The position numbers were made by a program. 62,297 bases of DNA, taken from Escherichia coli (GTDB lineage: Bacteria > Pseudomonadota > Gammaproteobacteria > Enterobacterales > Enterobacteriaceae). Every line of letters begins with the position of its first letter. The stretch's first letter is position 1. Location: assembly GCF_024298765.1 (NCBI RefSeq), contig NZ_CP101213.1; one strand, 5' to 3'. Below are positions 60,001-62,297 of the stretch, piece by piece.

Positions 60001-62297
60001 CGACTTCATAAGCTGCCTTCGCTGCATCAATGACCTGGACAAAACAAACAGCATCGATAGTTACGTTTGCATTGTCTTTCGAAATAACTTCCTGTTTAGG
60101 AATATCCAGGACGGTTTCCATCATGTTGATCCGTTGACCTATGCGGTCCATAAACGGGATCAGGAAGTGAAGACCGGGGGAAAGCGTATGGGTATATTTA
60201 CCAAAGCGTTCCACTGTCCAGGCATTACCTTGCGGCACGATTTTGACGGCAGATTTAACGAATATCAGCGCGACTAAAATTAATAAGAGTAACGGAATAG
60301 ATGTAACTATTGGCGTAATTATAGCGTCAATCATGATTAATCCTCTCCCCATTCATCACAATATGCTTCAACCGGAGTTTTTCCTGCTTCATAATCACCG
60401 CGCCATGCTTCCGCATCGGCGGCATTTCCACCGCGTAACTCTGCGTAATCCATTAATAGCTCGTGCCATTCTTCAAATGTTACGGTTTGTTTAGTGGAAC
60501 CAAAATCAGCCATATGTATTTCCTGCATTTTGTGGAGGTATCTCTTTGCAAATGAAATCTGAAATATGAACATCAACAGAAAAACACTTTCCTGCTTCTT
60601 TTTCTTTTGAGAAGTTTTTTCTGCATTCTTCAGCGGTCATAGGGAAGTCGCTGTAATGAGTCCATTTCACGGGGCCACCACCTGGTTTTTTGATGGTTGC
60701 GTTTATTTGGTACTTAGGCATTCAAAAATACCTCCACTCGATCACCTGTCTTTCTTGAACACATCCAGCGGCGCAGTTCTGTAAAACTATCCTGGATCTC
60801 ACAACGGGTACTTTTCATTGTGACAGTTGGTATATTGTCGTAGCTGGCATATGCAATCTCTTTTTTGGGTGTGCGCAATATGCCTTTGTCAATATCAAGA
60901 ATCCTGAACGCGCTAATTCTTCTTTTGTGCTCGTTAAATAGTGTTCGTTTAGTTGCTGTTATCTGCTTCTGTGCTTCCTGGTAAATGTAGGTAAGCACAT
61001 CATAAGATTGTTGCTGTGTAATAAGGAAATTACGGCTAACATCCGTTGTTGTGAGCGTTTTATTATTTCTTAATCCCCAATAGGCCACGATGATATAGAG
61101 TGGATATCCTTTCAAATCTGCCACACATTCAGGAATGACAGGATTAATTTTTAACTTACGCGCCATATTTTCTCCCGGTTGTTTGTCTGAAATAGAAACA
61201 TCCCCGGAATACAGCGTCATAAGCTAATTATGAAAAGTTGCAGCCACTCACTACAGGCTCTTTATCTGATTGTTCATCATCATGCATAGCTAAACCCCCT
61301 TACCTGGAGTGGAGACTGGCAAATCTGGTGTACTTCTGCGTTGCAGCCTGTACGACTTGCTCAGGGAGAGAGTGAGTGAGATTAACTCAACGCGAGTTCA
61401 CCAAATAAGGGGGTTTAAGTATGCAGAATGATATTTGCGGATAAAGAGTCGTTACCTGTGTAGATGGCGCGGCACGTCACTCTGTTACGTAGCCCGTTGC
61501 TGACAGATGCCAGCGGTGCTTGAAATGCACGAATAATAACCTCCTTATGCCAGGGCTTTAGGCAATGACCGCTGTCCGGGGTTGTTAAAGAGCATGAGAT
61601 GACAAGCGTTCTAACGGGCGTCAAAGAGTGCTCATTTTCCAGGCAATGAGCACAAAAAACGCGATGAACGAGCTTTTTACAATCATCTGGATAGTATTGT
61701 GTGTGCGACATTTAAAACCTGTCAATGCCACAAGAGCGATCTAATGATCTGGATAACATCTAAAAAACAGAATAATATTCTGTTTGTTAAATGATGTACG
61801 ATCTAAAAATCTAGATAATACTGTTTGTGTGGTTTATTCGATCGTGTGAGTGGGTGTATGCAGTCAAAAAAACTTTTTTGAATATACAAAATTCTGAATT
61901 TCTGATTTTGTAAGGTTTTGTATGGGGAACGTCAGTAAAGAAGGGGCTTCAGTAGCTGTTCTGAAAACGATTTTGAAGCAGTCAGAGATGTGTGCTGAAT
62001 CAAAAAGGAAACGAGCCAGGCTTGAACATCGTTGATCGATTGCGCCCATGCTGCTAAATTTGCAGGCAAGTTTTCCGCGATTTGTAAATGCAGAAAACGA
62101 GGTGCTGAAATTTTGTTCAAGAACGTAAATTTCAGATAAAGAAAACCCCCGTAATCTCGTGTTTTCCAGGCAGCGAAGATTAGCGGGGGCTGACATCAAG
62201 GCAGAGCCTTGAGCTTATTTATTTCAGGTATGCTTGTTACCTGAAATGGAGTTTAATTCCATGAGAAGGAAATATCAACTCTTACAGTGCAAGCTAA

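What the first reader, a model, noticed from the sequence alone, without database searches (positions are those of the whole stretch)
61220..61420. Intergenic region with 12-bp inverted repeats bracketing about 100 bp upstream of a CaiF/GrlA-like regulator
taaaccccctta (61291-61302) and its reverse complement taagggggttta (61406-61417) bracket a ~100-bp segment between two minus-strand genes. This could be a long RNA stem (sRNA or riboregulator), a regulator binding site, or a miniature inverted-repeat element.
Basis: seen in the sequence. Interest (0 to 1): 0.3.

Follow-up and report, generated by a model that had tools for sequence, protein, structure and literature searches.

The report
Conserved leader-RNA hairpin before IncI2 transfer genes
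The inverted repeat is real and is the top of a long, evolutionarily maintained RNA hairpin in the untranslated leader that precedes the regulator and conjugation genes of IncI2 (mcr-1-type) resistance plasmids; it most likely gates expression of those genes after transcription, but no experiment has yet looked at it.

Summary
They extend to 32-nt arms (61276-61307 / 61401-61432), the strongest local inverted repeat in the window. The window is an IncI2 plasmid backbone (R721/pHNSHP45 type). The repeat lies in the roughly 500-nt non-coding stretch upstream of the CaiF/GrlA-family regulator that heads about 38 kb of co-oriented transfer genes. Three plasmid lineages carry a hairpin at the same position, next to a conserved ~150-nt non-coding block. 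Their loops are 18-93 nt. Five stem pairs show changes on both sides, and every non-Watson-Crick stem position is G·U on the minus strand only. With RNA parameters the minus strand folds 5-13 kcal/mol better; with DNA parameters the strands are equal. It is therefore an RNA structure in the sense of the operon. It is not a MITE (one copy, plasmids only), a terminator (no U tract), a palindromic operator, or any Rfam family. Its 3' arm holds a Shine-Dalgarno-like G run and a start codon in every lineage. The best inference is a cis-acting translational or processing gate, a new member of a known kind. The upstream 98-aa "gene" is spurious.

The parts
61401..61432 (-). 5' arm of the hairpin in RNA sense (AUCAUUCUGCAUACUUAAACCCCCUUAUUUGG).
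61308..61400 (-). Apical loop of 93 nt, CU-rich (UUAAUCUCACUCACUCUCUCCCUG). It is specific to IncI2. The loop is 38 nt in the L005 lineage (47 nt between the 21-nt arms reported) and 18-26 nt in the pE105-2 lineage. One IncI2 variant has a 4-nt CTCA deletion here.
61276..61307 (-). 3' arm of the hairpin (CCAGGUAAGGGGGUUUAGCUAUGCAUGAUGAU).
61440..61448 (-). 5' strand of the basal helix (CUCUUUAUC), at the 3' end of the conserved block. It pairs with 61258-61266.
   Evidence: (I11)
61258..61266 (-). 3' strand of the basal helix (GAUAAAGAG). In the pE105-2 lineage the equivalent strand is AAUAAUGAG, which contains the AUG of the first gene, and the U-A pair has changed to A-U.
61228..61287 (-). 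Short ORF opened by the AUG in the 3' arm (MHDDEQSDKEPVVSGCNFS, 19 codons plus stop). Its stop lies 7 nt before ATG 61220. Its translation is hypothetical.
61446..61593 (-). Conserved non-coding block of the leader, about 150 nt. It is 80-85% identical to lineages whose flanking genes are only 65-77% identical. It includes a 22-nt invariant run, AGAGTGACGTGCCGCGCCATCT.
61477..61546 (-). Invariant perfect Shine-Dalgarno AAGGAGG (61546-61540) followed by a GUG-initiated 17-codon ORF (61530-61477, MHFKHRWHLSATGYVTE). A strong SD plus GUG/UUG is present in all lineages, but the peptide and frame are not conserved. This is a possible leader peptide.
   Evidence: and sequence reading
61499..61514 (-). 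Small hairpin inside the block (GCUGGC-AUCU-GUCAGC). The same pair is G·U in the window, G-C in L005 and A-U in pE105-2, and the loops differ. This supports transcription of the block on the minus strand.
   Evidence: and sequence reading
61560..61574 (-). Mini-hairpin CAGC-GGTCATT-GCCT in the block. It resembles ops (GC-GGTA-GC) and the IncX3 PrfaH site (CGG-GGTCAT-CCG). This is a lead only.
61696..61725 (-). Candidate leader promoter, TTGACA-18-CACAAT. The -35 hexamer is positionally conserved (TTGACA/TTGACA/TTGAAC) about 10 nt downstream of a conserved TAGATCGC motif in all three lineages.
   Evidence: sequences
60714..61220 (-). CaiF/GrlA-family regulator, the first annotated gene after the leader. 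PGAP starts it either at 61166 (good SD GGGAGA) or at 61220 (no SD).

Best explanation
The inverted repeat is the upper part of a long, irregular RNA hairpin formed by the minus-strand transcript. That transcript is the 5' leader of the operon that starts with the CaiF/GrlA-family regulator and continues into the type IV secretion and pilus genes of the IncI2 plasmid. The leader probably starts at a promoter near 61725-61696. It then runs through a conserved ~150-nt block that carries a perfect Shine-Dalgarno and a short ORF, and folds into the hairpin. The C-rich 5' arm pairs with the G-rich 3' arm, which carries a Shine-Dalgarno-like run and a start codon. The most likely mechanism (inferred, not shown) is a cis-acting post-transcriptional gate. 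While the stem is closed, the initiation site in the 3' arm is inaccessible. That site serves the first cistron directly in some relatives, and in the window a short ORF that stops 7 nt before ATG 61220. Opening or cutting the stem lets the first cistron be translated. Translation of the upstream leader ORF, a host factor, or RNase III could do this, since the stem has 30 near-continuous base pairs. Shown: the repeat exists, it is conserved, the selection acts on RNA and on the minus strand, and a start site sits in the 3' arm. Inferred: the transcription start, translation of the short ORFs, and what opens or cleaves the stem.
For: 1) Context. The window is the IncI2 backbone; 517 PLSDB records match at 95% identity or more. 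The repeat lies between the divergent repA and about 38 kb of co-oriented transfer genes. 2) Positional conservation. Three lineages carry a hairpin immediately after the same conserved block: IncI2, L005/L022 (regulator only 52% identical in protein), and the pE105-2 group, which has no CaiF gene and where the hairpin directly precedes the virB operon. 3) Covariation. On the 26 pairs of stem plus basal helix, 96.6% of cells pair; controls with partners slid by 1-3 columns give 47-56%. Five pairs changed on both sides, and one position is A-U, G-C and U-A in the three lineages. 4) Strand. Across the five distinct versions there are 16 G·U pairs on the minus strand and none on the plus strand. 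RNA energies, minus versus plus, are -41.9/-36.9, -34.4/-26.7, -23.8/-13.9, -18.5/-12.7 and -19.8/-6.8 kcal/mol. With DNA parameters the two strands are equal. 5) Variants within IncI2 fall only in unpaired positions. 6) The hairpin appears in the minimum-energy folds of the whole leader in the sequences of all three lineages that were folded. 7) Initiation site in the 3' arm. A G run sits 6-8 nt before AUG/GUG at the same aligned position in all lineages. In L007/8/9 and L049 this GUG is in frame with the first gene, with two synonymous third-position changes. In L003 a 7-codon ORF stops 2 nt before the first-gene AUG. In the window a 19-codon ORF stops 7 nt before ATG 61220. 8) In the pE105-2 group the basal helix pairs the end of the conserved block with the AUG of the first gene.
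Against: There are no transcript data, so the transcription start is only a consensus match. In pE105-2 a stronger promoter-like site (CTGACA-16-TACAAT) lies just upstream of the hairpin. If used, it would put the stem at the very 5' end of the mRNA and leave the basal helix out. Only three lineages exist, and the genome and metagenome scans found no more, so the covariation rests on few independent events and on a hand-extracted alignment. The regulator has its own good SD at 61166, outside the hairpin. The short ORFs differ in length and sequence between lineages, and in L006 the arrangement is broken. Deleting the regulator had little effect on host growth or fitness in pHNSHP45 (PMC8053102), so the importance of gating it is unknown. 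RNase III cleavage is suggested only by stem length; the pE105-2 stems have just 17-18 bp.
Confidence: 0.6

Rival explanations
1. The hairpin is mainly an RNA processing and stability element. Either RNase III cuts the long duplex and separates the conserved leader from the operon mRNA, or the stem sits at the 5' end of the mRNA and protects it from 5'-end-dependent decay. The start codon in the 3' arm would then be incidental.
For: The window has 30 near-continuous base pairs and L005 has 23, extended by a basal helix into a rod of more than 40 bp. Loop sequence and length are free while pairing is kept, which is typical of purely structural stems. In pE105-2 a promoter-like site would start the RNA at the foot of the stem.
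Against: The pE105-2 stems have only 17-18 bp. The invariant CAU/AUG(GUG) and the G run are not explained. No cleavage data exist. This rival is not exclusive of the main explanation.
Confidence: 0.2
2. The hairpin is a transcriptional barrier (pause or non-canonical terminator) in a leader that recruits an anti-terminator upstream. The conserved block carries an ops-like mini-hairpin, as in IncX3, where PrfaH is recruited at a 5'-UTR site and an intergenic stem-loop upstream of virB1 that behaves like a termination signal no longer limits virB1 expression.
For: The block contains CAGC-GGT(C/A)A(T/C)T-GCCT. Its loop GGTCAT is identical to the IncX3 PrfaH-site loop, and the two positions that vary here correspond to C8 and T10, which are not among the substitutions the IncX3 paper reports as impairing transfer. 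The operon is very long: 20 kb in pE105-2 and about 38 kb in IncI2.
Against: No U tract follows the stem in any lineage. No NusG/RfaH-like ORF is detectable in the window or in pE105-2. The match to the E. coli ops consensus GGCGGTAGnnTG fails at G8, T11 and G12, so host RfaH is not expected to bind. A 6-mer match has roughly a 7% chance in 150 nt (my estimate).
Confidence: 0.1
3. It is a DNA-level element. Either it is a palindromic protein-binding site or cruciform at the promoter of the regulator, or it is a single-stranded-DNA hairpin used during conjugation or replication (an ssi site or Frpo-type promoter).
For: It lies in a regulatory intergenic region next to GATC-rich repeats. The single strands also fold well with DNA parameters (z = -7.2).
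Against: Arm spacing varies from 18 to 93 nt. The mismatch pattern is strand-biased, yet it gives no energetic advantage as DNA. There are no -35/-10 hexamers in the stem. The element is not next to the relaxase/MobC genes at 16-21 kb in pHNSHP45, where oriT would be expected (inference). It travels with the T4SS operon rather than with the replicon: L006 and L008 have other replicon types.
Confidence: 0.06
4. It is a miniature inverted-repeat transposable element or an IS remnant that happened to land upstream of the regulator.
For: It has terminal inverted repeats bracketing a unit of about 157 bp.
Against: There is one copy per plasmid and no chromosomal copy in 5,426 E. coli genomes. The 12-mer occurs nowhere else in the window. 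No direct repeats flank it. Related lineages have the same stem at the same site with different loops and compensatory changes.
Confidence: 0.01

Closest known systems
Leader-peptide / stem-loop control of repA in the same plasmid family (repR-repA of IncI2 pHNSHP45, PMC8053102). From my own knowledge, also tap-repA of R1 and repY-repZ of ColIb-P9.
   Same: A short ORF sits in a structured leader, a stem-loop buries an initiation site, and the short ORF ends at or next to the start of the regulated gene. This is cis-acting, post-transcriptional control on a plasmid.
   Different: The locus and strand differ: this element is upstream of the transfer genes, not of repA. No antisense RNA partner is evident. 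The stem is far longer (30 bp, 93-nt loop). There is no sequence similarity. Translation of the short ORFs here is untested.
IncX3 prfaH 5' UTR (ops-like site), plus the stem-loop in the intergenic region upstream of virB1 (PMC11880322).
   Same: Both are promoter-proximal untranslated leaders of a VirB-type conjugation operon containing a small GGTCAT-loop hairpin, with a larger stem-loop further downstream that limits expression.
   Different: No RfaH/NusG paralogue is encoded here. The flanking stem of the mini-hairpin differs. The large stem has no terminator-like tail. No functional data exist.
RNase III-processed leader hairpins of E. coli and phage operons (rnc, pnp, adhE, lambda N, T7 early RNAs; from my own knowledge).
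   Same: A long, nearly perfect duplex in a 5' untranslated region, where pairing but not loop sequence is conserved.
   Different: Cleavage has not been shown here, and one lineage has stems of only 17-18 bp.
traJ 5' UTR / FinP antisense system of F-like plasmids (from my own knowledge).
   Same: A structured leader in front of the first regulator of a conjugation operon. IncI2 also encodes a ProQ/FinO-family protein, PcnR.
   Different: There is no conserved plus-strand promoter or terminator for an antisense RNA. The G·U pairs point to the sense strand only. The pE105-2 lineage has the element but no annotated ProQ/FinO gene.
Fold-back inhibition of IS10/IS50 transposase mRNA (from my own knowledge).
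   Same: An inverted repeat in read-through transcripts pairs with and hides the initiation region of the first gene.
   Different: That mechanism needs a promoter between the two arms. None is seen, and the loop is only 18 nt in one lineage.

Membership tests
Intrinsic (Rho-independent) terminator | G+C-rich hairpin followed directly by a run of U | tested here: not met
   After the 3' arm the RNA reads GAACAAUCAG in the window, AUGUGGCAAU in L005 and ACGAAAAGUA in L003. The scan finds no terminator at the site.
MITE / IS-derived element | Several dispersed copies, terminal inverted repeats and flanking target-site duplication | tested here: not met
   There is one copy per plasmid, and all 312 places are on plasmids, none on the chromosomes of 5,426 E. 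coli genomes. The 12-mer occurs only at the two arms in the window. No flanking direct repeat is present.
Any Rfam 15 RNA family | Covariance-model match at or near the gathering score | tested here: not met
   No match overlaps 61200-61600 at the gathering threshold, and none does even at E up to 10.
Conserved cis-regulatory RNA structure (generic) | Base pairs maintained by compensatory changes in homologous positions of diverged relatives, with strand-specific G·U pairs | tested here: met
   96.6% of cells pair against 47-56% in slid controls. Five pairs changed on both sides. There are 16 G·U pairs on the minus strand and 0 on the plus strand. Caveat: only three lineages and a hand-extracted alignment.
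Leader-peptide-coupled translational control (tap/repA type) | A short ORF with its own ribosome-binding site whose stop lies at or next to the start of the regulated gene | tested here: inconclusive
   The ORF from the 3'-arm start codon stops 7 nt before ATG 61220 in the window and 2 nt before the AUG in L003. It is fused in frame in L007-9 and L049, and the arrangement is broken in L006. Translation itself is not testable here.
Leader-peptide-coupled translational control (tap/repA type) | RNA structure that occludes the initiation region | tested here: met
   The G run and the AUG/GUG lie inside the 3' arm in all lineages. In the pE105-2 group the first-gene AUG pairs in the basal helix.
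RNase III substrate | About 20 bp or more of nearly continuous double-stranded RNA | tested here: inconclusive
   The stems have 30 bp (window), 23 bp (L005) and 17-18 bp (pE105-2 group).
RNase III substrate | Cleavage dependent on rnc | not testable with these tools
   This needs a Northern blot or 5'-end mapping in rnc+ and rnc- hosts.
ops / RfaH anti-termination element | GGCGGTAGnnTG on the non-template strand of a promoter-proximal leader | tested here: not met
   The best stretch is AGCGGTCATTGCC in the window and AGCGGTAATTGCC in pE105-2. Only GCGGT(A) is shared, and G8, T11 and G12 fail.
IncX PrfaH system | A plasmid-encoded RfaH-like (NGN-domain) protein and its GGTCAT-loop site in the 5' UTR | tested here: not met
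   The loop 6-mer GGTCAT is present. No NusG/RfaH-like ORF was found by phmmer in all six-frame ORFs of the window, pE105-2 and the L004, L005 and L007 loci, nor by Pfam in 26 proteins scanned.
FinP/traJ-type antisense control | A convergent promoter and terminator producing an antisense RNA across the leader | tested here: not met
   No conserved plus-strand promoter or terminator is found. The wobble pairs favour the sense strand only.
Single-stranded-DNA promoter or ssi signal (Frpo type) | A long ssDNA hairpin with -35 and -10 hexamers in the stem, located in the leading region next to oriT | tested here: not met
   There are no hexamers in the stem. DNA folding energies are equal on the two strands. 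The site is far from the mobC/relaxase genes at 16-21 kb in pHNSHP45.
Palindromic operator (double-stranded DNA) | Two half-sites at a fixed distance, with mismatches that have no strand bias | tested here: not met
   The distance between the arms is 18, 19, 26, 38 or 93 nt. All mismatches that are transitions are G·U on one strand.

The most novel reading that the evidence does not exclude
The hairpin and the neighbouring invariant block together form a previously undescribed leader-RNA family of about 300-520 nt that acts as the master post-transcriptional switch of the whole 20-38-kb conjugation regulon of IncI2 and related plasmids. In this reading a host machine reads the invariant block: RNA polymerase with an RfaH-like factor at the GGTNAY mini-hairpin, or the ribosome at the perfect SD and leader ORF. 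The long stem is then resolved so that the transfer genes are expressed. This could underlie the reported 10-fold activation of IncI2 transfer in hypoxia (PMC7508951).
Probability: 0.15. Interest if true: 0.65.

Novelty: new member of a known kind. Interest (0 to 1): 0.4.

Why it matters
IncI2 plasmids are the main vehicles of the colistin-resistance gene mcr-1, and how they control their own transfer is essentially unknown. The papers found here describe copy-number control (PcnR), toxin-antitoxin modules and the secretion genes, but none mentions the leader of the transfer operon. A conserved, structured leader whose stem buries an initiation site gives a concrete, mutable handle on that control. 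Arm and compensatory mutants, and re-reading of existing RNA-seq, would show whether it sets conjugation frequency. It would also add a plasmid leader RNA that is absent from Rfam. If it turns out to be only a stabilising or processing stem, the finding is ordinary.

Tried and rejected
1) Rfam at the gathering threshold and at E up to 10 found nothing on the element.

2) I searched for more lineages. The exact-pattern scan of 100,044 species genomes gave two hits, both from the known lineages in one MAG. The metagenome scan gave 35 loci: 23 from the same three lineages and 12 chance hits in GC-rich genes. Relatives found through the regulator protein (P0002, P0009, P0011) have a leader 100% identical to the window, which indicates a mosaic junction and adds no new information. 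Other CaiF/GrlA genes, such as the one on the Enterobacter plasmid L012, sit in unrelated contexts.

3) RNAalifold on the conserved block, on both strands, was uninformative because the block is almost invariant.

4) The 98-aa ORF 61415-61711 is rejected as a gene: it is unannotated, and its homologues carry frame-breaking indels.

5) An antisense RNA on the plus strand is rejected: there is no conserved promoter or terminator, and the wobble pairs are on the wrong strand.

6) A search for a plasmid RfaH/NusG paralogue was negative.

7) Six literature searches, with six papers opened, found no description of this leader or hairpin.

8) I noticed a possible long-range pairing of 61575-61586 with 61197-61208 (I6). 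It is partly kept in L005 and absent in pE105-2, so I left it as an observation.
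Full report
**Observation.** The sequence shows TAAACCCCCTTA at 61291-61302 and its reverse complement at 61406-61417, exactly as reported. The complementarity is longer than stated. The arms are 61276-61307 and 61401-61432, 32 nt and 81% complementary, with 93 nt between them. A separate perfect 9-bp helix lies below, pairing 61258-61266 with 61440-61448 (I11). With one mismatch allowed, the 12-mer occurs only at these two places in the window; 0.26 matches are expected by chance. The pair ranks first among only three inverted repeats of at least 20 nt within 200 nt in all 62,297 bases. Folded as RNA, 61270-61440 gives -60.7 kcal/mol on the minus strand, z = -5.9, with none of 200 shuffles as good.

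**Context.** The window is an IncI2 plasmid backbone. The region is 100% identical to R721, pD90-2 and hundreds of others, and 517 PLSDB records match at 95% or more, almost all typed IncI2, MOBP, MPF_T.

- By offset from pD90-2, repA starts one base after the window end. The published repA promoter, leader peptide and antisense RNA (PMC8053102) therefore lie at about 62045-62297, well away from the repeat.
- On the other side, the minus strand carries the CaiF/GrlA-family regulator (Pfam PF07180, E = 3.9e-10). PGAP starts it at 61166, which has a good SD, or at 61220.
- In pHNSHP45 about 38 kb of co-oriented genes follow: DUF1187, SPFH/NfeD, virB-type secretion genes, virD4, the type IV pilus genes and the shufflon.
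Its counterpart in relatives has 1-2-nt indels. It is not a gene, so the repeat lies in a long non-coding stretch in front of the operon.

**Relatives.** Sensitive blastn found that only about 150 nt next to the repeat (61443-61593) are conserved in a second group of 31-45-kb plasmids (pE105-2 and others). There the block sits directly in front of a 20-kb virB1-virB11/virD4 operon, with no CaiF gene.

- A third lineage (CP101950.1, L005; later also metagenome contig L022) has a CaiF regulator only 52% identical in protein.
- The element goes with the secretion operon, not with the replicon: L006 is typed IncK2/Z and L008 IncFIA.
- It occurs once per plasmid and never on a chromosome, with 0 chromosomal places among 312 places in 5,426 complete E. 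coli genomes.
- Scans of 100,044 species genomes and of the metagenome collection found only these three lineages.
- The block is an island of conservation. It is 80% identical between the window and pE105-2 where the secretion genes are 65-73% identical. Between the window and L005 it is 85% identical where the neighbouring genes are 70-77%.

**The hairpin is conserved as a structure.** Immediately after the block, every lineage has an inverted repeat at the same place, with different sequence and loop size. The loops are 93 nt in IncI2, 38 nt in L005, and 18-26 nt in the pE105-2 group.

- I extracted the 17 core pairs and the 9-bp basal helix from six distinct versions and counted pairs. 96.6% of cells form standard pairs; this falls to 47-56% when partners are slid by 1-3 columns.
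- Five pairs have changes on both sides. One position is A-U, G-C and U-A in the three lineages, and no shuffle reaches the observed covariation score.
- The alignment was made by hand and rests on three lineages, so this is solid but not overwhelming.
- Variants within IncI2 fall only in unpaired positions: a CTCA deletion in the loop, one base in an internal loop, and one base in a small hairpin loop.

**Strand and molecule.** In all five distinct versions the non-Watson-Crick stem positions that are transitions are G·U on the minus strand and therefore A·C on the plus strand: 16 G·U against none. The RNA energies, minus versus plus, are -41.9/-36.9, -34.4/-26.7, -23.8/-13.9, -18.5/-12.7 and -19.8/-6.8 kcal/mol. 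With DNA parameters the two strands are equivalent: -19.4/-20.2, -16.1/-15.0 and -12.1/-11.8. The bias pays only in RNA, so selection acts on the minus-strand transcript, the sense strand of the regulator and transfer genes.

A small hairpin inside the block (61499-61514) shows the same signature. One pair is G·U in the window, G-C in L005 and A-U in pE105-2, and the loops differ. This indicates that the block is transcribed too, so the transcript starts upstream of it.

A promoter-like site, TTGACA-18-CACAAT, lies at 61725-61696. Its -35 hexamer is positionally conserved in all three lineages, about 10 nt after a shared TAGATCGC motif (sequences). An AT-rich hairpin with a U6 tail sits just upstream at 61757-61793. 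None of this is proof of a start site. In pE105-2 a better consensus match (CTGACA-16-TACAAT) lies immediately before the hairpin.

**What it is not.**

- It is not an intrinsic terminator, because no U tract follows the stem in any lineage.
- It is not a MITE, given the copy number, the absence of a target duplication and the fixed position.
- It is not a palindromic operator, because the arm spacing varies from 18 to 93 nt and the mismatches are strand-biased.
- It is not a single-stranded-DNA promoter or priming signal. There are no hexamers in the stem, the DNA energies show no strand asymmetry, and the relaxase region is far away.
- It is not an antisense RNA gene, because there is no conserved plus-strand promoter or terminator.
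- It is not any Rfam family, even at E up to 10.

**How it probably works.** The 3' arm is G-rich and in every lineage contains a Shine-Dalgarno-like run 6-8 nt before a start codon at the same aligned position:

- window: AAGGGGG-UUUAGCU-AUG
- L005: AGGGGAG-CUUAUUU-AUG
- pE105-2 group: AAGGGGGA-UUAACU-GUG

In each case the start codon pairs with an invariant CAU in the C-rich 5' arm.

In four pE105-2-type sequences from two sublineages (L007-9 and L049) this GUG is in frame with the first gene of the operon. It adds 12 codons, which differ between the sublineages by two synonymous third-position changes among five changed codons. This suggests it is the true start. In L003 a 10-nt deletion leaves a 7-codon ORF that stops 2 nt before the first-gene AUG. 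In the window a 19-codon ORF (61287 to 61228) stops 7 nt before ATG 61220, the start used in the 168-aa annotation of the regulator. In the pE105-2 group the basal helix additionally pairs the end of the conserved block (CUCAUU) with the AUG of the first gene (AAUGAG).

The simplest reading is a translational operator. The closed stem hides the initiation site of the first cistron, or of a short ORF coupled to it. Something must then open or cut the stem.

- One candidate is the ribosome translating the leader ORF in the block. That ORF has an invariant perfect SD, AAGGAGG, at 61546-61540, and a GUG at 61530, giving 17 codons. The peptide is not conserved, and in L005 this ORF runs into the 5' arm.
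- Another is RNase III, since the stem has 30 near-continuous base pairs.
- A host RNA-binding factor is a third possibility.

These steps are inferred. The regulator also has its own SD at 61166, outside the hairpin, so the gate may act on only part of its expression.

**A further lead.** The block contains CAGC-GGT(C/A)A(T/C)T-GCCT (61574-61560). This is a two- to three-base-pair stem with a GGTCAT(T) loop. It resembles the E. coli ops core (GC-GGTA-GC) and, more closely, the site bound by the plasmid RfaH paralogue PrfaH in the 5' UTR of the IncX3 conjugation operon (CGG-GGTCAT-CCG; PMC11880322). The two positions that vary among my lineages correspond to C8 and T10, which that paper does not list among the substitutions that impair transfer.

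In IncX3 a stem-loop in the intergenic region upstream of virB1 behaves like a termination signal, and PrfaH appears to help RNA polymerase past it. However, I found no NusG/RfaH-like ORF in the window or in pE105-2. The ops consensus fails at G8, T11 and G12, and the large stem has no terminator tail. I keep this as a minority reading.

**Comparison with what is known.**

- In function it resembles the leader-peptide and stem-loop controls of plasmid replication genes: repR-repA in this same plasmid family, PMC8053102, and tap-repA and repY-repZ from my own knowledge. It also resembles RNase III-processed leader hairpins. It shares no sequence with any of them and sits in front of the transfer genes.
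- Six literature searches, with six papers opened, found no description of this leader.
- Deletion of the CaiF/GrlA gene had little effect on host growth or fitness in pHNSHP45.
- Transfer of the IncI2 plasmid TP114 rises about 10-fold in hypoxia. Neither study looked at the leader.

**Verdict.** The element is a new member of a known kind, a conserved cis-acting leader-RNA hairpin. It is of moderate interest because it heads the conjugation genes of the main mcr-1 plasmid family and can be tested directly with existing RNA-seq data (GSE284789) and simple compensatory mutants.

Noticed in passing
window 61446-61593 (minus strand): A ~150-nt non-coding block is more conserved between plasmid lineages (80-85%) than the neighbouring genes (65-77%). 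It has a 22-nt invariant run, an invariant perfect Shine-Dalgarno (AAGGAGG) and a GUG/UUG-initiated ORF, 16-17 codons in the window and the pE105-2 group but frame-shifted to 39 codons in L005, whose peptide is not conserved.
   Followed up: partly
window 61560-61574 (minus strand): The mini-hairpin CAGC-GGTCATT-GCCT resembles ops (GC-GGTA-GC) and the IncX3 PrfaH site (CGG-GGTCAT-CCG). No RfaH/NusG-like ORF was found on the plasmid.
   Followed up: partly
window 61735-61850; L003 3225-3350; L005 3250-3360: A cluster of GATC-containing repeats (CGATCTA, GATCTNNATAA) lies between the leader promoter candidate and the repA promoter. A conserved TAGATCGC sits about 10 nt upstream of the -35 hexamer. 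These may be Dam-sensitive sites or an operator.
   Followed up: no
window 61757-61793: An AT-rich perfect-ish palindrome (AACAGAAUA-A-UAUUCUGUU) is followed by U6 on the minus strand. It looks like a terminator just upstream of the leader promoter candidate and is also present in L005.
   Followed up: no
window 61575-61586 with 61197-61208: A 12-nt complementarity (11 of 12) plus an adjacent CAGCG/CGCUG links the 5' end of the conserved block to the stretch just upstream of the regulator's ribosome-binding site. It is partly kept in L005 (7+4 bp) and absent in pE105-2.
   Followed up: partly
window 62138-62210 (minus strand): Weak sub-threshold Rfam matches to CopA-like RNA and rdlD coincide with the published repA antisense RNA and its terminator (PMC8053102).
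   Followed up: partly
window 61864-62199 (minus strand): A 111-aa ORF, apparently the counterpart of the 'hypothetical protein' annotated at 54-413 in pHNSHP45, overlaps the repA promoter and antisense-RNA region and is probably spurious.
   Followed up: no
window 1788-1883; L017 10601-10690, 14979-15067, 23720-23812, 35657-35752, 35981-36232: A ~90-bp element occurs once in the window, just downstream of repA, and at least five times in pE105-2 at 74-94% identity. It is a dispersed intergenic repeat of unknown nature.
   Followed up: no
window 4732-5170, 7684-8121, 5680-5899: A ~440-bp sequence is repeated two to three times within the window. It is also repeated in pE105-2 (L017 689-1115, 2447-2867, 4518-4940).
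   Followed up: no
window 2459-2630: A full-length match to the sok antitoxin RNA (RF01794, 98.4 bits) lies next to a Hok-family gene, as annotated in related plasmids.
   Followed up: no
window 31473-31526 and 13870-13989: These are the two other long local inverted repeats in the window: 23-nt arms with an 8-nt gap, and 35-nt arms with a 50-nt gap.
   Followed up: no
L013, L014, L016 (leader and regulator): Plasmids whose CaiF/GrlA protein is only 71-92% identical to the window's have a leader 100% identical up to the start codon. This points to a recombination junction at the start of the regulator gene.
   Followed up: partly
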